From a virus (lineage: Duplodnaviria > Heunggongvirae > Uroviricota > Caudoviricetes): a stretch of 27,982 nt of DNA. Shown here piece by piece: positions 1-8,494 of this stretch. The stretch lies in the IMG/VR virus record IMGVR_UViG_2850808358_000003. One strand, written 5' to 3'. The notes below the pieces were generated by a model. It worked only from the letters and a program-made list of their open reading frames with translations. It was not told the DNA's origin and did no database searches. Both the position numbers and the translations under genes were made by a program. How positions within the stretch are numbered: the first letter of the stretch is position 1; the number at the start of each line of letters is the position of its first letter.

Positions 1-288
1 ATGTCAACCGGATTACGTTTCACACTGGAAGTGGACGGCCTGCCACCGGATGCTTTTGCGGTGGTTTCCTTTCATCTCACCCAGTCACTCTCTTCACTTT
101 TTTCCCTCGACCTTTCTCTGGTCAGTCAGCAGTTTCTTTCCCTTGAATTTGCGCAGGTGCTGGACAAAATGGCCTACCTGACGGTATGGCAGGGCGATGA
201 CGTACAGCGGCGGGTGAAAGGTGTGGTGACCTGGTTTGAACTGGGGGAGAACGACAAAAACCAGATACTGTACAGCATGATGAGGTGT
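1..288 (+). pseudogene. vgrG: vgrG-like (T6SS spike / Rhs-associated Vgr) N-terminal fragment, 3' end removed by IS insertion
   Basis: ORF 1..327 translation MSTGLRFTLEVDGLPPDAFAVVSF... matches recalled VgrG N-termini up to ...NQILYSM; the last ~13 codons lie inside the IS inverted repeat starting at 289. Confidence 0.55.
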
Positions 289-323
289 ACTGGCAATAGC
301 GGACACTACCATTTGTTCTTTTT

Positions 324-1142
324 TTAAGCAGCCATCTGATGATATTTTTCCCTGAAGGCTGCCGGGGAGATATTCCCCAGACGAGAGTGACGACGCTGAC
401 GATTGTAGAAAATCTCAATGTATTCCCGTATTACTGAGATGGCTTCATCCCGGTTATTAAAACGATAGTGGCTCAGGCTCTCATTTTTCAGCGTTCCCCA
501 GAAGCTTTCCATCGGAGCGTTGTCGTAACAGTTACCTTTACGCGACATTGATGTTTTCAGACCAAACTGCTCCTGTATGACCCGGTAATCGTATGCGCAG
601 TACTGTGAACCTCGATCAGAGTGGTGGATTAGCCCGGCAGGTGGGCGCTGGCTCCTGAGCGCCATAAACAGGGCTTTACCTGTCAGCTCTTTTGTCATGC
701 GCTCTCCCATGGCGTAGCCGACAATTTCGCACGTATAAACATCTTTGATGCCAGCGAGGTACAACCATCCCTCCTGTGTGGCAACATACGTCAGGTCCGC
801 CACCCAGACCTGATTTGGTGCTGTAGGAGCGAACGTCTGGTTCAGCAGATTTGGCGCAACTGGCAGATTGTGGTTCGGGTTCGTAGTCGCTCTGAACTTG
901 CGTTTCTGCTTACAGCGTAGCCTTAGCTCCTTACGAAGACGTGCCAGTCGGTCACGACCAACGATGATGCCATTCTCTGCCAGCTCCGTCTGGAGCCGCC
1001 GGGTTCCATATGTTTCGCGAGTGCGGATATGTGCCACCTTAATCTCCAGTTTTAGCCGCTCATCACTTTGTTTTCTGTCTGAGGGTTCATGCTGTACCCG
1101 GTTGTAATAACCGCTCCTGGATACACCAAATACCTGACACAT
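324..1142 (-). CDS. IS3-family transposase OrfB (DDE integrase domain); normally made as OrfAB transframe fusion
   Basis: 272-aa ORF with ...HHSDRGSQY...CYDNAPMESFW... DDE-type motifs; the -1 frame from the OrfA A-run reads into this frame. Confidence 0.9.
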   Translation of the reverse strand: MCQVFGVSRSGYYNRVQHEPSDRKQSDERLKLEIKVAHIRTRETYGTRRLQTELAENGIIVGRDRLARLRKELRLRCKQKRKFRATTNPNHNLPVAPNLLNQTFAPTAPNQVWVADLTYVATQEGWLYLAGIKDVYTCEIVGYAMGERMTKELTGKALFMALRSQRPPAGLIHHSDRGSQYCAYDYRVIQEQFGLKTSMSRKGNCYDNAPMESFWGTLKNESLSHYRFNNRDEAISVIREYIEIFYNRQRRHSRLGNISPAAFREKYHQMAA

Positions 1143-1177
1143 CGCTTCAATGGGAAATTGTTGTCGCCATTGTTCGA

Positions 1178-1480
1178 TTAACGCGTATTTTTCAGCGACT
1201 CCTGTGCAAAATACGCTGTTGCTTTTTTTAATATATCTCGCTCAAGGCGAGCTTCATTTAACGCCTTACGCAGTTGCAGAATTTCAGATTCCAGTTCAGC
1301 CACCGTGCGGGAACCAGGAGTACCGAGCCCTTTTCTGGCGGCGGTAACCCATTGTCCTAAAGTGCCTTCAGGAAGGGATAATCGGGAAGCGCCTTCACTG
1401 ATCGAAAGTTGATTTTCAAGAACCGTTCTGACAGCTTCGGCTTTGAACTCTTTAGAGTAACGTTGGGTTTTTCTGCTCAT
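1178..1480 (-). CDS. IS3-family transposase OrfA (HTH), 100 aa
   Basis: Translation MSRKTQRYSKEFKAEAVRTV... as recalled for IS600 OrfA; A7G slippery run at 1222..1229 (T7 on plus strand) typical of IS3-family -1 frameshifting. Confidence 0.9.
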   Translation of the reverse strand: MSRKTQRYSKEFKAEAVRTVLENQLSISEGASRLSLPEGTLGQWVTAARKGLGTPGSRTVAELESEILQLRKALNEARLERDILKKATAYFAQESLKNTR

Positions 1481-1545
1481 TATTAGCTCCTTCTGATGCC
1501 ATTCTATTTCAGGAAGGAGTGTCCGTTAAACTCAGGCTACCTCAT

Positions 1546-1899
1546 CTACCCCAGATGAGTAATCCGAAGTTCATCCATACCACAGGTCCTGGCTATTCTG
1601 TTGTACTCCTGAACAAGAGCAAATAATTCTGAATTAGCAACCATGAACTCATCGCAAACCCTCTGTATAGCATCACTATTCAGAATAATAACGTCTCTTC
1701 CCGAAAGACGATCAGGAGTACAGAACAAAACTGTCAAACGGCTGAAGGCCTTTGCTCGTGCTGCATTGACTATATCAATACGCTGCCTAAGGATGAAACA
1801 CCCCGACGCCTCATCAATATTCACTCTACCCGCACCATATGAATGATAAATATTTAATGCTGAAAAAACCATTAGACCGTATAACAAATACTCAATCAA
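1546..1899 (-). CDS. hypothetical protein, 117 aa, AT-rich moron-position ORF downstream of phage tRNAs
   Basis: Intact ORF in AT-rich DNA where random ORFs are rare; co-directional with Q and tRNAs; stop codon 2 nt from IS end; no family recognised. Confidence 0.4.
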   Translation of the reverse strand: MIEYLLYGLMVFSALNIYHSYGAGRVNIDEASGCFILRQRIDIVNAARAKAFSRLTVLFCTPDRLSGRDVIILNSDAIQRVCDEFMVANSELFALVQEYNRIARTCGMDELRITHLG

Positions 1900-2009
1900 T
1901 ACTTAACAGAACTTTTATTTTTGACAAACATATAATATTTTCAACAATATCCTGAGCCAAGTATATTTCAGTATAAGGCTCTGCCGGAAGGAATCTGGAA
2001 GAATGAATA

Positions 2010-2086
2010 TGGCGCGCTGTACTGGATTCGAACCAGTGACCGATTGCTTAGAAGGCAATTGCTCTGTCCGGCTGAGCTAACAACGC
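2010..2086 (-). tRNA. tRNA-Arg (anticodon UCU), phage-borne
   Basis: Minus-strand 77 nt GCGTTGTTAGCTCAGCCGGACAGAGCAATTGCCTTCTAAGCAATCGGTCACTGGTTCGAATCCAGTACAGCGCGCCA; cloverleaf with 7-bp acceptor, GGTTCGAATCC T-loop, anticodon loop CTTCTAA, encoded CCA. Confidence 0.85.
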
Positions 2087-2186: not shown

Positions 2187-2262
2187 TGGTGGCCCTTGCT
2201 GGATTTGAACCAGCGACCTGGCGATTATGAGTCGCTCGCTCTCACCACTGAGCTAAAGGGCC
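2187..2262 (-). tRNA. tRNA with anticodon CAU, tRNA-Ile2 (lysidine)-like, alternatively elongator Met
   Basis: Minus-strand 76 nt GGCCCTTTAGCTCAGTGGTGAGAGCGAGCGACTCATAATCGCCAGGTCGCTGGTTCAAATCCAGCAAGGGCCACCA; close to recalled E. coli ileX; anticodon loop CTCATAA. Confidence 0.8.
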
Positions 2263-2288
2263 GGGAGCAGAATAATAACGGTCCGTAA

Positions 2289-2313
2289 TTAATTTCGCAA
2301 TAAAAAATCCGCT
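2289..2313 (-). terminator. short GC hairpin plus U-tract (tR'-like) downstream of late promoter
   Basis: Minus strand CCCGCCGCTGAGCGGATTTTTTATT; short stem CCGC/GCGG then T6. Confidence 0.35.
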
Positions 2314-2362
2314 CAGCGGCGGGTTGTAGAAACTCTTCTAACGTCAGGCATAAAACGCCCAT

Positions 2363-2390
2363 CGTTATGACGAATTTACCACAGATTCCG
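2363..2390 (-). promoter_or_regulatory. candidate late promoter (pR'-like) immediately downstream of Q-like gene
   Basis: Minus strand TTGATT (2385..2390) - 16 nt - TAAATT (2363..2368); position matches pR' in lambdoid phages. Confidence 0.35.
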
Positions 2391-2416
2391 GAAAAATCAA
2401 CCTTGTTACCTTGTTA
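2391..2416. repeat. three tandem 8-bp direct repeats TTGTTACC / TTGTTACC / TAGTTACC overlapping the Q-like stop codon
   Basis: Plus strand ccTTGTTACCTTGTTACCTAGTTACC directly read. Confidence 0.5.
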
Positions 2417-3235
2417 CCTAGTTACCTTTTTTAACTGCCGCTCAGCCCATGCTTCTTCAATATCAAACCGGGTCACCAGCGCATCATAAAATTTCTTAAC
2501 TGTTTTTTCCCATGACGCGCGTGTTATCTGGTTTGTCACCTCGCATATAGCATTAAATGCCTCCGTTGATGGTAGTCTTTCATAGCCACGACCACCACAA
2601 CGCTGGCAGTCTCTGATAACAGGCATACCACGTTTTACCGACTCTTCACGATGAATGGCGACACCACGCCCACGGCAATCCTTACAGGCGGTGGAAACCT
2701 CACCCTTTCCGCCACACTCCGGACAGGCAACTTTTACCACCTCCCTGACTTTTTTCCATTCTTCCCAGTAAGACGGATACACACCTTTCGTACACTTTGC
2801 CCATACCGGCGGCTTACCATCCGGATACTGGACCTTGTTTGTAAAAACTATGCTTTCAATAAATTTTTCCCCATAGCAACAAGGGCACTGCTTTTTACTC
2901 GCTGCGCTGCGGGCATAATCCTCAAAAGCGTACGAAGCCATAATGCGCATCACTACCGGTTTTATTTCTGCCGGAAGTTTTCTCAACGCCGCCACACGAT
3001 CGCACCGACTGAGTGCATAATCTGCCAGTAATTCTGTTGCCCGCGCCCTGTCATTCATACTGATGCCCATTTTCCCCAGGAACGCAGAAAAACCCATCTC
3101 AGCCCGATTCTGTGTCATGCCCTGCGCGGCCATCACATCAGTGATACTCAGCGCATCTTTTGACGTTGAGGCCGATGCATCGGTCAGGCCAGGGGATTTT
3201 GGGGAGTAGTATTTCGGTAAATCTTCCAGTTTCAT
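2414..3235 (-). CDS. Q-like late antiterminator candidate with four CxxCxGxG zinc-finger repeats (273-aa ORF; true start may be downstream)
   Basis: Position between rusA and the pR'-like promoter/tRNAs; CPCCYGEK, CPECGGKG, CKDCRGRG, CQRCGGRG motifs; family assignment by position, not verified. Confidence 0.5.
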   Translation of the reverse strand: MKLEDLPKYYSPKSPGLTDASASTSKDALSITDVMAAQGMTQNRAEMGFSAFLGKMGISMNDRARATELLADYALSRCDRVAALRKLPAEIKPVVMRIMASYAFEDYARSAASKKQCPCCYGEKFIESIVFTNKVQYPDGKPPVWAKCTKGVYPSYWEEWKKVREVVKVACPECGGKGEVSTACKDCRGRGVAIHREESVKRGMPVIRDCQRCGGRGYERLPSTEAFNAICEVTNQITRASWEKTVKKFYDALVTRFDIEEAWAERQLKKVTR

Positions 3236-3249
3236 TTTTTGACCTGCTC

Positions 3250-3607
3250 TTAATGCATTATGGGGTAAATCTTCACCCCCAGACGTCCACCAGATACTGG
3301 CTGACCACGAACGATATTGATTTCATCAAACTGCTCATCGTCCATTAACACTCCCGCATGCGTCAGCGCATCCAGCGGTGCTTTCAGGATATTGTCGCAG
3401 GTCGCGACGACGCTTATCCGGTGGCTCTGCAATCACCTTTATCGCCAGCCTTCCGGACAGGCTTAATTTCAGCCGCTGCTGGCGAACAATAAGCGCCACA
3501 GCCCGGCGATAACGCTTTCCCTCCTCCGAGATAAAATATGTGCTGCCACGGCGTCGCCAGTAAGTGTTCACCGTCGGCGGGTAAGGTAAAACCAAATCTA
3601 TGAGCAT
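3250..3607 (-). pseudogene. rusA: rusA Holliday-junction resolvase, frameshifted
   Basis: ORF 3335..3607 carries the RusA N-terminal part (...PPDKRRRDL) and ORF 3250..3432 the C-terminal part (DNILKAPLDALTHAGVLMDDEQF...) in another frame; extra C near 3396..3400. Confidence 0.75.
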
Positions 3608-5484: not shown

Positions 5485-5640
5485 TTACTCCTCAGGTTCG
5501 TAAGCTGTGAAGACAGCGACCTCCGTCTGGCCGGTTCGGATTCGTACCTCGCAGAGGTCTTTCCTCGTTACCAGTGCCGTCACTATGACGGTTAAACAGA
5601 TGACGATCAGGGCGATTAACATCGCCTTTTGCTGCTTCAT
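5485..5640 (-). CDS. hokD: HokD/RelF type I toxin, 51 aa (not in ORF track, below length cutoff)
   Basis: Manual translation of minus strand: MKQQKAMLIALIVICLTVIVTALVTRKDLCEVRIRTGQTEVAVFTAYEPEE*. Confidence 0.85.
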   Translation of the reverse strand: MKQQKAMLIALIVICLTVIVTALVTRKDLCEVRIRTGQTEVAVFTAYEPEE

Positions 5641-5711
5641 AGCCTGCTTCTCCTGTCAACGCAAAGCAGAAGTGTCACCTTCGGTGCGAAACAGAGATGT
5701 CATGCTTTGGT

Positions 5712-5999
5712 TCAGAGAATGCGTTTGACCGCCTCGCTATATACTTCCGAGCGTTCTCTTTTCCCAACAGAAATCACGAAAACGACAACTTTCTCGTCTA
5801 TAACCTGGTATACAAGGCGATAGCCTGAAGACCGGAGCTTAATCTTGTAACAATCAGGCATACCACGGAGCTTGTTTGCTTCAATCCGGGGTGACTCAAG
5901 TACTTCAACCAGCTTCTTTTTCAACTGTTCACGTACCGTCGAGCCCAGCTTTCGCCATTCCTTTAGTGCCCGCTCGTCAAAATCCAGAAAATACGCCAT
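5712..5999 (-). CDS. relE: RelE mRNA-interferase toxin
   Basis: 95-aa translation matches recalled K-12 RelE essentially end to end. Confidence 0.95.
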   Translation of the reverse strand: MAYFLDFDERALKEWRKLGSTVREQLKKKLVEVLESPRIEANKLRGMPDCYKIKLRSSGYRLVYQVIDEKVVVFVISVGKRERSEVYSEAVKRIL

Positions 6000-6238
6000 C
6001 AGAGTTCATCCAGCGTCACACGTACTGGCTTAGGATTACGAAGCCGTTCTTTCACTATCTCCACAAGTTCAGCATCTTCATCACTCAGGAGTGTCTGTTT
6101 GAACGGCAAGCGTTCATTGTCAGCGATATACTCGAGCATGAGACGAAGCGCTTCAGAAGGAGTTACACCCATTTTTTCAAGCGCGGCGTAAGAACGCGCT
6201 TTAAGTTCATCGTCAATACGCAGGTTAATGCTACCCAT
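5999..6238 (-). CDS. relB: RelB antitoxin
   Basis: 79-aa translation MGSINLRIDDELKARSYA... matches recalled RelB; stop overlaps relE start. Confidence 0.95.
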   Translation of the reverse strand: MGSINLRIDDELKARSYAALEKMGVTPSEALRLMLEYIADNERLPFKQTLLSDEDAELVEIVKERLRNPKPVRVTLDEL

Positions 6239-6239
6239 G

Positions 6240-6300
6240 TCTTACACCTCTTGTAATTACAAATGTCATTACAAGTATCGCACTACAACATGCTTAGGGC
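6240..6300 (-). promoter_or_regulatory. relBE promoter/operator region with palindromic TTGTAAT repeats
   Basis: TTGTAATTACAAATGTCATTACAA at 6251..6274, 13 bp upstream of relB start. Confidence 0.5.
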
Positions 6301-6453
6301 AAGTCACGAAGGAAGTCAGAAAGTAGTCGTAAGAACGGTGATCACTGTCCGCTTTGTGCCAGGAGCAGCCATTGCTAAGTCCATCCTGTTGAGGTAGCCT
6401 GAGTTTAACGGACACTCCTTCCTGAAATAGAATGGCATCAGAAGGAGCTAATA

Positions 6454-6756
6454 ATGAGCAGAAAAACCCAACGTTACTCTAAAGAGTTCAAAGCCGAAGC
6501 TGTCAGAACGGTTCCTGAAAATCAACTTTCGATCAGTGAAGGCGCTTCCCGATTATCCCTTCCTGAAGGCACTTTAGGACAATGGGTTACCGCCGCCAGA
6601 AAAGGGCTCGGTACTCCTGGTTCCCGCACGGTGGCTGAACTGGAATCTGAAATTCTGCGACTGCGTAAGGCGTTAAATGAAGCTCGCCTTGAGCGAGATA
6701 TATTAAAAAAAGCAACAGCGTATTTTGCACAGGAGTCGCTGAAAAATACGCGTTAA
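6454..6756 (+). CDS. IS3-family transposase OrfA (copy 2; L28P and Q68R relative to copy 1)
   Basis: Same 100-aa protein as 1178..1480 with two substitutions. Confidence 0.9.
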   Translation: MSRKTQRYSKEFKAEAVRTVPENQLSISEGASRLSLPEGTLGQWVTAARKGLGTPGSRTVAELESEILRLRKALNEARLERDILKKATAYFAQESLKNTR

Positions 6757-6791
6757 TCGAACAATGGCGACAACAATTTCCCATTGAAGCG

Positions 6792-7211
6792 ATGTGTCAG
6801 GTATTTGGTGTATCCAGGAGCGGTTATTACAACCGGGTACAGCATGAACCCTCAGACAGAAAACAAAGTGATGAGCGGCTAAAACTGGAGATTAAGGTGG
6901 CACATATCCGCACTCGCGAAACATATGGAACCCGGCGGCTCCAGACGGAGCTGGCAGAGAATGGCATCATCGTTGGTCGTGACCGACTGGCACGTCTTCG
7001 TAAGGAGCTAAGGCTACGCTGTAAGCAGAAACGCAAGTTCAGAGCGACTACGAACCCGAACCACAATCTGCCAGTTGCGCCAAATCTGCTGAACCAGACG
7101 TTCGCTCCTACAGCACCAAATCAGGTCTGGGTGGCGGACCTGACGTATGTTGCCACACAGGAGGGATGGTTGTACCTCGCTGGCATCAAAGATGTTTATA
7201 CGTGCGAAATT
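6792..7211 (+). pseudogene. IS3-family transposase OrfB, 3'-truncated at codon ~140
   Basis: Identical to copy 1 OrfB through ...GIKDVYTCEI, then diverges at the junction. Confidence 0.85.
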
Positions 7212-8494
7212 TTTCCCGCGAGGTTGAAGCGGCATGGAAAGAGTTTGCCGAGGATGACTGCTGCTGCATTGACGTTGAGCGGAAACGCACGTTTACCATG
7301 ATGATTCGGGAAGGTGTGGCCATGCACGCCTTTAACGGTGAACTGTTCGTTCAGGCCACCTGGGATACCAGTCCCTCGCGACTGTTCCGGACACAGTTCC
7401 GGATGGTCAGCCCGAAGCGCATCAGCAACCCGAACAATACCGGCGACAGCCGGAACTGCCGTGCCGGTGTGCAGATTAATGACAGCGGTGCGGCGTTGGG
7501 ATATTACGTCAGCGAGGACGGCTATCCTGGCTGGATGCCGCAGAAATGGACATGGATACCCCGTGAGTTACCCGGCGGGCGCGCCTCGTTCATTCACGTT
7601 TTTGAACCCGTGGAGGACGGGCAGACCCGCGGTGCAAATGTGTTTTACAGCGTGATGGAGCAGATGAAGATGCTCGACACACTGCAGAACACGCAGCTGC
7701 AGAGCGCCATTGTGAAGGCGATGTATGTCGCCACCATTGAGAGTGAGCTGGATACGCAGTCAGCGATGGATTTTATTCTGGGCGCGAACAGTAAGGAGCA
7801 GCGGGACAAGCTGACCGGCTGGATTGGTGAAATTGCCGCGTATTACGCCGCAGCACCGGTCCGTCTGGGAGGCGCAAAAGTGCCGCACCTGATGCCGGGG
7901 GACTCACTGAACCTGCAGACGGCTCAGGACACGGATAACGGCTACTCCGTGTTTGAGCAGTCACTGTTGCGGTATATCGCTGCCGGGCTGGGTGTCTCGT
8001 ATGAGCAGCTTTCCCGGAATTACGCCCAGATGAGCTACTCCACGGCACGGGCCAGTGCGAACGAGTCGTGGGCGTACTTTATGGGGCGGCGAAAATTCGT
8101 CGCATCCCGTCAGGCGAGCCAGATGTTTCTGTGCTGGCTGGAAGAGGCCATCGTTCGCCGCGTGGTGACGTTACCTTCAAAAGCGCGTTTCAGCTTTCAG
8201 GAAGCCCGCAGCGCCTGGGGGAACTGTGACTGGATAGGCTCCGGTCGTATGGCCATCGATGGTCTGAAAGAAGTACAGGAAGCGGTGATGCTGATAGAAG
8301 CCGGACTGAGTACCTACGAGAAAGAGTGCGCAAAACGCGGTGACGACTATCAGGAAATTTTTGCCCAGCAGGTCCGTGAAACGATGGAGCGCCGTGCAGC
8401 CGGTCTTAAACCGCCCGCCTGGGCGGCTGCGGCATTTGAATCCGGACTGCGACAATCAACAGAGGAGGAGAAGAGTGACAGCAGAGCTGCGTAA
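7212..8494 (+). pseudogene. B: lambda portal protein B, lacking roughly the first 107 codons
   Basis: ORF 7166..8494 from residue ~16 onward matches recalled lambda gpB C-terminal ~426 aa; first 15 residues are IS-derived. Confidence 0.9.

What the first reader, a model, noticed from the sequence alone, without database searches (positions are those of the whole stretch)
1546..2009. Uncharacterised AT-rich ORF (117 aa) in the classic moron slot downstream of Q and the phage tRNAs
In lambdoid phages the slot right after Q-pR'-tRNAs is where cargo such as stx sits. Here an intact 117-aa ORF occupies it, co-directional with the late transcript and in markedly AT-rich DNA. I cannot assign it to any family from sequence. 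Its stop codon lies 2 nt from the IS end, so it may be either complete or the 5' part of a larger gene.
Basis: partly seen in the sequence, partly recalled or inferred. Interest (0 to 1): 0.5.

Follow-up and report, generated by a model that had tools for sequence, protein, structure and literature searches.

The report
Overlooked small prophage moron gene
The ORF is a real, complete but usually unannotated small prophage accessory gene of about 92 codons (not 117); it encodes a two-helix hairpin protein of unknown function, so it is an ordinary uncharacterised "moron", not a toxin or a truncated gene.

Summary
On the minus strand the order is Q antiterminator (3235-2414), tRNA-Ile2(CAU), tRNA-Arg(UCU), an AT-rich spacer, an open frame 1899-1546, then IS600 starting 1 nt after the stop.

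- **Complete gene.** 81 of 81 related loci, most of them IS-free, have the same stop codon and an intact frame.
- **Length is 92 codons, not 117.** The real gene is most likely 1824-1546, starting at a GTG. Two diverged E. coli alleles (60-63% aa identity) begin at the same GTG. More distant relatives have ATG plus a Shine-Dalgarno sequence at the equivalent place.
- **Coding signal.** dN/dS is about 0.26 between alleles. Within the allele, the 25 extra upstream codons vary like non-coding DNA.
- **Distribution.** It is present in 1183 of 5426 complete E. coli genomes. No CDS was annotated under the match in any of the 36 listed A-type hits.
- **Family.** It matches PHROG 2873 (unknown function), with no Pfam, NCBIfam, PADLOC or PDB match. 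Only 22 relatives exist among 1.84 billion representative proteins. All sit on mobile DNA: the Q-to-lysis slot of prophages, fimbrial plasmids, a type IV pilus island.
- **Structure.** AlphaFold gives a soluble helix / beta-hairpin / helix coiled-coil hairpin (pLDDT 88). Fold matches are non-specific.

Function is unknown. My best guess, at low confidence, is a stoichiometric protein-binding modulator. Interest is low to moderate.

The parts
1546..1824 (-). Protein-coding gene, 92 codons plus TAG stop, GTG start. Product is 10.4 kDa, pI 5.7, with no Trp and no signal peptide or transmembrane segment by inspection. The predicted fold is helix(3-35) / beta-hairpin(39-46) / helix(50-81).
   Evidence: Diverged alleles start at the same GTGAATATTGAT and have exactly 92 codons. 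NG86 dN/dS is 0.26 and third-position differences are twice those at positions 1 and 2 (Fisher p about 1e-6). The frame is intact in 81 of 81 A-type loci, and SNP density is 0.032 against 0.10 in the upstream DNA (p=0.002). AlphaFold pLDDT is 88. PHROG 2873 match E=5.6e-58.
1825..1899 (-). The 25 in-frame codons that extend the mechanical ORF to 117 aa. Most likely 5' untranslated leader or promoter-proximal DNA, not coding.
   Evidence: Within-allele polymorphism is 6 sites in 75 nt, 5 non-synonymous to 1 synonymous, 4 of them at codon position 2. The extension is closed by a stop in allele B of L005 and absent in allele C. Distant relatives have ATG plus Shine-Dalgarno at the position equivalent to the GTG.
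1900..2009 (-). AT-rich spacer (GC about 0.34) between tRNA-Arg and the gene. It contains sigma-70-like hexamer pairs, which are candidates for the gene's own promoter.
   Evidence: Composition. Promoter-like sites on the minus strand at 1960..1932 (TTGGCT-17-TATTAT) and 1944..1917. These are consensus matches only. SNP density here is the highest of the three regions (0.118).
2010..2086 (-). Phage tRNA-Arg (anticodon UCU), which reads AGA and AGG.
   Evidence: ARAGORN. Rfam tRNA 68 bits. 5 of the gene's 10 Arg codons are AGA or AGG.
2187..2262 (-). Phage tRNA with CAU anticodon, annotated tRNA-Ile by PGAP in relatives (lysidine type, reads AUA).
   Evidence: 3 of the gene's 9 Ile codons are ATA.
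2414..3235 (-). Q-type late antiterminator (273 aa). It drives read-through of the late transcript that covers the tRNAs and the gene.
   Evidence: PF03589 E=6e-55. Annotated 'antitermination protein' in relatives.
2308..2400 (-). Inferred pR' (TTGATT at 2400-2395, 16-nt spacer, TAAATT at 2378-2373) and tR' hairpin (about 2327-2308), followed by a second promoter-like site at 2300..2272.
   Evidence: The promoter is my own reading of the sequence; it scores below the scanner's threshold. The terminator is called in relative L001 at 6095-6114, and the window copy has one G-to-A change in the stem. TTGCGA-17-TATTAT at 2300..2272 comes. All of this is inference only.
281..1544 (-). Complete IS600 inserted 1 nt after the gene's stop codon. 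It replaces the native downstream DNA (DUF3927 gene and STnc100 sRNA in relatives).
   Evidence: 1264 bp, 100% identical to IS600 copies. orfA and orfB domains. Intact relatives.

Best explanation
Shown: window 1824-1546 (minus strand) is a genuine, complete, selectively maintained gene of 92 codons. It is a moron-type accessory cassette in the late region of a Qin/mEp460-like lambdoid prophage. It lies downstream of Q, pR'/tR' and two phage tRNAs that decode its rare AGA, AGG and ATA codons. It should therefore be transcribed with the late operon when Q antiterminates. It may also be transcribed from promoters in the AT-rich DNA just upstream. Its product is a small (10.4 kDa), mildly acidic protein with no signal peptide or transmembrane segment by inspection, so probably cytoplasmic. 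The predicted fold is an antiparallel coiled-coil hairpin whose tip is a short, highly conserved beta-hairpin (FSRLTVLFCTPDRxSG...V.ILN). Inferred, at low confidence: a protein of this size and shape has no room for a catalytic site. It most likely acts stoichiometrically, by oligomerising and binding a partner protein, in the way small helical anti-activators and adaptors do (TraM, ANR/Aar, IraP, Hha). The best available hint for the partner class is a transcription regulator of horizontally acquired, AT-rich virulence or fimbrial loci. This rests on family members lying next to an AraC-type regulator, a PapB/FocB regulator, a small LuxR/GerE regulator plus an ANR-like gene, and a BFP-like type IV pilus operon. 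My probability that it is a real 92-aa moron gene is about 0.9. My probability that it is a protein-binding regulatory modulator is about 0.3.
For: Gene reality: the three alleles align without gaps over exactly 92 codons, with a shared GTG start and the same stop position. dN/dS is 0.26-0.27 in the sense frame and about 1 in most other frames. One antisense frame is equally low only because it shares wobble positions, and it carries stops in alleles A and B. pS exceeds pN with p about 1e-6. The core is intact in 81 of 81 loci and 3-4 times less polymorphic than the upstream DNA. Distant relatives of 91-95 aa have ATG starts preceded by GAAGGG, GGGAG or GAGGGG. PGAP itself calls the C-type and plasmid-type members as 92-aa and 91-aa hypothetical proteins. 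Completeness: the same stop is seen in IS-free prophages. Moron character: GC is 0.34-0.44 in all family genes against about 0.5 in the flanks. Intrinsic terminators lie just downstream in the C, Citrobacter and P0024 alleles, and also just upstream in the latter two. The tRNA-Arg and tolA-like genes are 311 nt apart in L005 but 1120 nt apart in phage mEp460, where the extra DNA holds this gene plus the DUF3927 gene. Upstream neighbours differ completely between alleles: tRNA-Arg, an AraC-like gene, a DNA methyltransferase. Fold: AlphaFold pLDDT 88.2, pTM 0.75, H3-35 / E39-41 / E44-46 / H50-81. Contexts with regulators. Rare codons matching the adjacent tRNAs.
Confidence: 0.55

Rival explanations
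1. The frame is a chance ORF in non-coding AT-rich late-region DNA. This is the implicit view of PGAP and RAST, which leave it unannotated. Any function of the DNA would be as spacer, promoter or RNA.
For: No CDS lies under the match in any of the 36 listed A-type hits, in a search where 1183 complete E. coli genomes hold at least 80% of the query. In mEp460 only a 38-aa antisense ORF was called. The Shine-Dalgarno sequence is weak and the start is GTG.
Against: dN/dS is 0.26, with p about 1e-6 for pS>pN. The three alleles at 67-72% nucleotide identity show no indels and no stops. The frame is intact in 81 of 81 loci. Relatives at 32-41% identity keep the same length and have good ribosome-binding sites. 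There is no Rfam match in the region.
Confidence: 0.04
2. The product is the longer 117-aa (TTG start) or 108-aa (ATG at codon 10) protein, as read by the first-stage reader and as modelled in PHROG 2873.
For: The frame stays open over the extension in all 81 A-type loci. The PHROG 2873 profile is 108 positions long and matches residues 10-117. Alleles A and B share some upstream similarity (MIEYLLYGLMVFS against MIDCIRYSLNVFS).
Against: The extension carries 5 non-synonymous changes to 1 synonymous, at near-intergenic SNP density. It is interrupted in allele B of L005 and absent in allele C. All distant relatives start at the position of the GTG. No Shine-Dalgarno sequence precedes the TTG or the ATG.
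Confidence: 0.1
3. The ORF is the 5' remnant of a larger gene cut by the IS600 insertion.
For: The stop codon lies only 1 nt from the IS end.
Against: Prophages without the IS have the identical C-terminus ...RITHLG followed by TAG. Alleles B and C stop at the same codon.
Confidence: 0.01
4. It is a phage-conflict gene: a superinfection-exclusion or defence factor, or an anti-defence protein, expressed from the prophage. Many small morons are of this kind (for example HK97 gp15, from my own knowledge).
For: It has moron architecture and sits on prophages and plasmids. It is small, acidic and helical. The family is very narrow and patchy, with 22 hits among 1.84e9 representatives, which is typical of arms-race genes.
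Against: There is no PADLOC hit. There is no membrane segment of the kind usual in exclusion proteins. It lies in the late operon rather than in the early or immunity region where anti-defence genes usually sit. Purifying rather than diversifying selection is seen.
Confidence: 0.15
5. It is a prefoldin-like or gp57A-like coiled-coil assembly chaperone for phage or pilus fibres.
Against: The fold match is generic, and many designed hairpins score equally. The Q-to-lysis slot is far from the virion genes. The gene is absent from most related lambdoid phages, so it cannot be an essential assembly factor.
Confidence: 0.1
6. It is a virulence effector or toxin cargo, analogous to stx in the same slot.
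For: Position only: stx occupies the homologous slot after Q and the tRNAs in Stx phages (PMC4104026, PMC8065619).
Against: There is no signal peptide by inspection, no toxin or enzyme domain and no Pfam hit. The gene is present in 22% of E. coli complete genomes, including isolates from pig, cattle and other animals, river water and wastewater.
Confidence: 0.03

Closest known systems
PHROG 2873 (and the related PHROG 4827), phage protein families of unknown function
   Same: Direct sequence membership. The window protein matches phrog_2873 at E=5.6e-58 over its full length. All 10 diverse family members match phrog_2873, and 9 of 10 also match phrog_4827.
   Different: The PHROG model is 108 positions long and includes 16 N-terminal positions that the comparative data here indicate are not translated. 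The family carries no functional annotation.
Morons of lambdoid phages (Juhala et al. 2000 concept; examples are lambda bor and lom, HK97 gp15, and stx in the pR' slot, as described in PMC4104026)
   Same: It is a single small gene of deviant (AT-rich) composition inserted in the late operon between Q/pR' and the lysis genes. It is present or absent among otherwise related prophages. In several alleles it is bracketed by intrinsic terminators.
   Different: An own promoter is not demonstrated. In the A allele no terminator follows the gene, and it travels together with a DUF3927 gene. The function and any benefit to the host are unknown.
Small helical anti-activators and adaptors: ANR/Aar (PMC4983702), TraM (PDB 2q0o), IraP, Hha
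   Different: There is no sequence similarity. The ANR signature (A10, E14, A22, W26, A29, W43, R47) is absent, and the family has no Trp apart from one in the weak relative P0035. The model has two helices, not three. The structural match is generic. No binding data exist.
Prefoldin beta-class subunit (PDB 1fxk_A)
   Different: Sequence identity is 3%. There is no evidence of hexamer formation. Prefoldins are archaeal and eukaryotic.

Membership tests
Moron (independent accessory cassette in a phage late operon) | Lies between genes that are adjacent in related phages (presence/absence polymorphism) | tested here: met
   The tRNA block and the tolA-like gene are separated by 311 nt in L005 but by 1120 nt in mEp460 (L007), where the extra DNA holds this gene and the DUF3927 gene. 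The Q-tRNA DNA occurs in 3115 genomes, but the full query including the ORF occurs in only 1181.
Moron (independent accessory cassette in a phage late operon) | Base composition distinct from the surrounding phage genes | tested here: met
   GC is 0.34-0.44 for the gene and its upstream spacer, against 0.49 for Q and 0.50-0.56 for the flanks.
Moron (independent accessory cassette in a phage late operon) | Own sigma-70 promoter | tested here: inconclusive
   Promoter-like hexamers occur at 1960..1932 and 1944..1917 on the minus strand. A TTAT(C/A)AT motif about 20 nt upstream of the GTG is shared by alleles A, B and C (my reading). These are consensus matches only, in AT-rich DNA.
Moron (independent accessory cassette in a phage late operon) | Own factor-independent terminator | tested here: inconclusive
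   Met in relatives: L006 5334-5351, L010 6316-6335, and upstream terminators at L010 5914-5933 and L091 3234-3255. In L091 the downstream hairpin is my own reading. None was found after the A allele in L001. In the window the downstream DNA is replaced by IS600.
PHROG 2873 | Significant match to the family HMM over most of its length | tested here: met
   E=1.9e-69 for the 117-aa form (residues 10-117 against profile 1-108). E=5.6e-58 for the 92-aa form.
ANR (AraC negative regulator) family | Family signature with conserved A10, E14, A22, W26, A29, W43, R47 across three helices, and mass below 10 kDa (PMC4983702) | tested here: not met
   No tryptophan occurs in the family apart from one in the weak relative P0035. 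The model has two long helices, not three. The mass is 10.4 kDa. No Pfam or HMM similarity was found.
ANR (AraC negative regulator) family | Binds and inhibits an AraC/XylS partner | not testable with these tools
   Only gene-neighbourhood hints exist: an AraC-like gene upstream of allele B and an ANR-like ORF beside P0028.
Prefoldin-like fold | Two long coiled-coil helices joined by a beta-hairpin | tested here: met
Prefoldin-like fold | Oligomerises through the beta-hairpins into a jellyfish-like chaperone | not testable with these tools
   No multimer prediction or experiment was available.
Any curated protein family (Pfam-A, NCBIfam, PADLOC) or solved structure by sequence | HMM match at or near the curated threshold | tested here: not met
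   Zero Pfam families at E<=1 for the window protein, and only scattered single-member noise at E<=10 for 10 members. No NCBIfam hit. No PADLOC hit. The best PDB sequence profile hit has E=0.31.

The most novel reading that the evidence does not exclude
The 92-aa protein founds an unrecognised family of coiled-coil hairpin anti-activators or co-regulators carried by prophages, fimbrial plasmids and pilus islands of Enterobacteriaceae. On this reading it binds AraC-, PapB- or LuxR-type regulators, or nucleoid proteins, and so tunes expression of horizontally acquired virulence or adhesin loci. It would be a functional analogue of ANR/TraM with no sequence relationship to them, and it goes unannotated in the listed hits from more than 1000 complete E. 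coli genomes.
Probability: 0.12. Interest if true: 0.6.

Novelty: new member of a known kind. Interest (0 to 1): 0.3.

Why it matters
Practically, this is an annotation gap. A gene under clear purifying selection is present in about 22% of complete E. coli genomes, yet no CDS was annotated under the match in any of the 36 listed A-type RefSeq hits. Where it is called in phage databases, it is probably called too long. Biologically, it adds one more uncharacterised cargo gene to the pR' moron slot that elsewhere holds stx. The family is restricted to mobile elements that also carry adhesin and virulence regulators. If it proves to be a regulator-binding protein, it would link prophage induction or lysogeny to the control of such loci. 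Without experiments it remains an ordinary hypothetical moron.

Tried and rejected
- **Curated libraries and sequence search of PDB:** Pfam, NCBIfam and PADLOC gave no hit. PDB sequence-profile searches gave nothing below E=0.3.
- **Rfam on the region and on relatives:** there is no RNA family inside the ORF, so an sRNA explanation was dropped.
- **Antisense ORFs:** the 67-aa ORF at 1643-1846 (+) and the 38-aa ORF at 1839-1955 (+), the latter called in mEp460, were rejected. The antisense frame with low dN/dS merely shares wobble positions, and it has stops in alleles A and B.
- **ANR membership:** considered because of the AraC neighbour, and rejected on the signature residues.
- **PerC/Pch, Hha and IraP relatedness:** no Pfam similarity at E<=10.
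- **Truncation by IS600:** rejected.
- **Locus search with the 10-member alignment:** it failed for lack of a conserved stretch. A narrower alignment found only 3 species genomes.
- **tblastn against phage records:** only one record, mEp460_ev081, has the gene. P0030 has no plasmid match.
- **Literature:** searches for the accessions and PHROG ids found nothing.

Full report
**1. What is at the coordinates**

The reported frame is on the minus strand: 1546..1899, 117 aa, TTG start. Positions 1900-2009 are the spacer up to tRNA-Arg. Reading the minus strand in the direction of phage late transcription, the order is:

| Feature | Window coordinates | Evidence |
|---|---|---|
| Q-family antiterminator | 3235-2414 | PF03589, E=6e-55 |
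| CAU-anticodon tRNA (PGAP: tRNA-Ile) | 2262-2187 | |
| tRNA-Arg(UCU) | 2086-2010 | |
| AT-rich spacer | 2009-1900 | |
| The ORF | 1899-1546 | |
| Complete 1264-bp IS600 | 1544-281 | |

- GC is 0.41 over the ORF and 0.34 just upstream, against 0.50-0.56 around it.
- The TAG stop occupies 1548-1546, so a single base separates it from the IS end.

**2. Is the ORF complete?**

Yes. A megablast of the Q-tRNA-ORF segment finds the whole segment in 1181 complete E. coli genomes. The ORF plus spacer alone occurs in 1183 of 5426.

In IS-free prophages (L001, L002) the frame is the same 117 codons and ends ...RITHLG-TAG. It is followed by a small DUF3927 gene. Across 81 gapless full-length copies (the window, IMG/VR loci and E. 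coli loci) the stop is unchanged. IS600 landed one base after the native stop, so nothing is truncated.

**3. Is it a gene, and how long?**

No CDS was annotated under the match in any of the 36 listed A-type hits. The mEp460 annotators called only a 38-aa antisense ORF. Coding therefore had to be tested.

*Diverged alleles.* Two diverged alleles exist in E. coli prophages:
- Allele B (L005 5071-5349) lies next to an AraC-like gene.
- Allele C (L006 5032-5310) is annotated by PGAP as the 92-aa hypothetical protein WP_001017777.1.
- A, B and C align without a single gap over exactly 92 codons. All three start at an identical GTGAATATTGAT and stop at the same codon. Nucleotide identity is 67-72% and amino-acid identity is 60-65%.

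*Selection between alleles.*
- Differences at third codon positions are about twice those at positions 1 and 2.
- Nei-Gojobori dN/dS is 0.26-0.27 in this frame and about 1 in most others.
- pS exceeds pN with Fisher p about 1e-6 in each pair.
- The one antisense frame with equally low dN/dS only shares the wobble positions. It contains stops in alleles A and B.

*Polymorphism within the A allele.*

| Region | Length (nt) | Polymorphic sites | Density | Non-syn : syn |
|---|---|---|---|---|
| Intergenic spacer | 110 | 13 | 0.118 | not applicable |
| 25-codon N-terminal extension | 75 | 6 | 0.080 | 5 : 1 |
| 92-codon core | 279 | 9 | 0.032 | 5 : 5 |

- The core is less polymorphic than the upstream DNA (p=0.002).
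- The extension is closed by a stop in allele B of L005 and is absent in allele C.

*Distant relatives.* Members of 91-95 aa start with ATG, preceded by GAAGGG, GGGAG or GAGGGG, at the equivalent position.

I conclude that the gene is 1824-1546, has 92 codons and starts at a GTG. The 117-aa reading, and the 108-aa model behind PHROG 2873, are probably over-extensions.

**4. Family and distribution**

- The protein matches PHROG 2873 (unknown function; E=2e-69 for the long form and 6e-58 for the short form). It matches PHROG 4827 more weakly.
- It has no Pfam, NCBIfam or PADLOC match and no sequence relative in the PDB.
- The word-indexed search of 5.8 billion proteins found 17 clusters, nearly all E. 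coli or Shigella.
- An exhaustive profile search of 1.84 billion representatives found only 22 hits. This is a very narrow family.

| Member | Identity to A (aa) | Context |
|---|---|---|
| Allele A | reference | After tRNA-Arg in a Qin/mEp460-like prophage |
| Allele B | 60% | 89 nt after an AraC-like gene in the Q-to-lysis region |
| Allele C | 63% | After a DNA methyltransferase in the same region |
| P0023 | 39% | Between Q and the lysis genes of a Citrobacter braakii prophage |
| P0024 | 41% | About 1 kb downstream of a DUF1133 Q-like gene |
| P0027 | 34% | IncF plasmids of pig and cattle E. coli, divergent from a PapB/FocB regulator of a chaperone-usher operon; PGAP calls it WP_029488779.1 |
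| P0028 | 33% | Near a small GerE/LuxR gene and an ORF with the ANR signature |
| P0030 | 33% | Immediately after a BFP-like type IV pilus operon |
| P0034, P0035 | 22-23% (E about 1e-4) | Phage tail modules |

Only one of 50,697 phage records carries the gene: mEp460_ev081.

**5. Moron anatomy**

- All family genes are AT-rich, with GC 0.34-0.44.
- In the C allele and the Citrobacter allele the scanner calls an intrinsic terminator 25-45 nt after the stop. The P0024 allele has an equivalent hairpin by my reading.
- The Citrobacter and P0024 alleles also have a terminator about 55-60 nt before the start.
- Upstream neighbours differ completely between alleles.
- The tRNA block and the tolA-like gene are 311 nt apart in L005 and 1120 nt apart in mEp460. 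The extra DNA in mEp460 is this gene plus the DUF3927 gene.
- Promoter-like hexamers exist upstream of the window copy. A TTAT(C/A)AT motif about 20 nt before the GTG is shared by alleles A, B and C (my reading). None of these is validated.
- Tree et al. describe the DNA downstream of the Q-antiterminated pR' as the moron insertion site that holds stx2 in Sp5 (PMC4104026).
- By my own reading of the sequence, pR' is TTGATT-16-TAAATT at 2400-2373. A tR'-type hairpin follows, called in L001 at 6095-6114.
- The gene should therefore at least be expressed when Q antiterminates.
- Eight of its 92 codons are AGA, AGG or ATA, the rare codons read by the two adjacent phage tRNAs.

**6. The protein**

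- It is 10.4 kDa with pI 5.7. It has no Trp, and no signal peptide or transmembrane segment by inspection of the sequence.
- With a 9-sequence alignment, AlphaFold gives pLDDT 88.2 and pTM 0.75. The model is helix 3-35, a short beta-hairpin (39-41 and 44-46), helix 50-81 and a loose C-terminal tail. A 5-sequence alignment gave the same hairpin at pLDDT 82.
- The most conserved stretch, AFSRLTVLFCTPDRxSG..V.ILN, forms the end of helix 1 and the beta-hairpin tip. R23, P37, N64, Y74 and N75 are invariant or nearly invariant.

**7. How it most likely works**

*Shown.* It is a maintained, mobile, late-operon accessory gene that encodes a small coiled-coil hairpin.

*Inferred.* Such a protein is too small and too simple to be an enzyme. 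It most plausibly works by oligomerising and binding a partner. The recurring neighbours are an AraC-like regulator, a PapB/FocB regulator, a GerE regulator plus an ANR-like gene, and a BFP-like pilus operon. They suggest, weakly, a modulator of regulators of horizontally acquired loci, in the manner of ANR, TraM, Hha or IraP.

Membership in ANR was tested and fails. The signature tryptophans and the three-helix layout are absent.

The rivals are a phage-conflict function, a prefoldin- or gp57A-like assembly chaperone, and the largely excluded non-coding, truncated or toxin readings. They are weighed in the structured fields.

**8. Verdict**

It resolves into an ordinary case: a catalogued but functionally unknown prophage moron (PHROG 2873). 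The gene is complete, is probably 92 aa long, and went unannotated in every listed A-type E. coli hit. In novelty it is a new member of a known kind. Interest is about 0.3.

Noticed in passing
window 281-1544 and 6390-7211: Two inverted IS600 copies bracket the Q-containing prophage segment 1545-6389. One is complete (minus strand). The other is truncated to its first 822 nt (plus strand, 99.8% identical) and fused to a 5'-truncated lambda-type portal gene at 7166-8494. The bracketed segment is inverted relative to the head/tail module (7166 to about 24800, plus strand). The lysis and terminase genes are missing. The bases flanking the complete copy (TGA at 278-280, TCT at 1545-1547) are not a target duplication. 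This points to IS-mediated inversion or deletion, typical of Shigella-like genomes.
   Followed up: partly
window 1-280 (+): An N-terminal fragment of a VgrG-like (Phage_GPD) type VI secretion gene is cut off by the IS600 end. The prophage late region is therefore now joined to unrelated chromosomal DNA.
   Followed up: no
window 3250-3607 (-): The rusA-like Holliday-junction resolvase gene is split into two overlapping ORFs of 90 aa and 60 aa. Related prophages have a single gene of 118-124 aa. This looks like a frameshift pseudogene and is another sign that the prophage is defective.
   Followed up: no
window 5488-6241 (-): A relB/relE-type toxin-antitoxin pair (ParE_toxin hit for 5712-5999) lies next to a hok-type toxin ORF, by my own reading, at about 5488-5640. 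Together with DUF968, rusA and Q, this recalls the Qin prophage layout.
   Followed up: no
L001 7108-7297 (+), downstream of the gene in intact relatives: A strong match to the sRNA family STnc100 (RF02076, 123 bits) follows the gene and the DUF3927 ORF in IS-free prophages. PGAP places a partial 'hypothetical protein' pseudogene on the opposite strand there. This sRNA is absent from the window because of the IS600 junction.
   Followed up: partly
window about 2308-2327 (-): The tR'-like terminator hairpin between Q and the tRNAs has one G-to-A change in its stem relative to L001 (AACCCGC...GCGGATT against GCGGGTT). The terminator scanner no longer calls it in the window. Read-through into the tRNAs and the gene might therefore be higher in this copy.
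   Followed up: no
L093 3031-3204 (-): A 57-aa ORF (MKYNFHYYSQLAAIAEIARDYENAAIFWGKASLLARKLQNIDWAITRKTFCLKQLPP) appears to fit the published ANR (AraC negative regulator) signature, by my own reading: A..E, A...W..A, W...R..FC. It lies about 650 nt downstream of, and convergent with, family member P0028, on a metagenomic contig.
   Followed up: no
window 1546-1824 with tRNAs at 2010-2086 and 2187-2262: 5 of the gene's 10 Arg codons are AGA or AGG, and 3 of its 9 Ile codons are ATA. These are the rare codons decoded by the two phage tRNAs immediately upstream.
   Followed up: partly
L006 5334-5351, L010 6316-6335 and the DNA just after them: After the terminator that follows the C-type and Citrobacter alleles comes a conserved stretch (...gcgcacatcaaaaacacagagcctttc...) shared between E. 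coli and Citrobacter braakii. It may be one of the short convergent prophage sRNAs described at moron sites (PMC4104026). No Rfam family matched in L006.
   Followed up: partly
window 1921-1948 (+): The best sigma-70 consensus match in the region (TTGACA-16-AACAAT, 10 of 12) is on the strand opposite to the gene and points into the antisense of tRNA-Arg. It is probably a chance match in AT-rich DNA.
   Followed up: no
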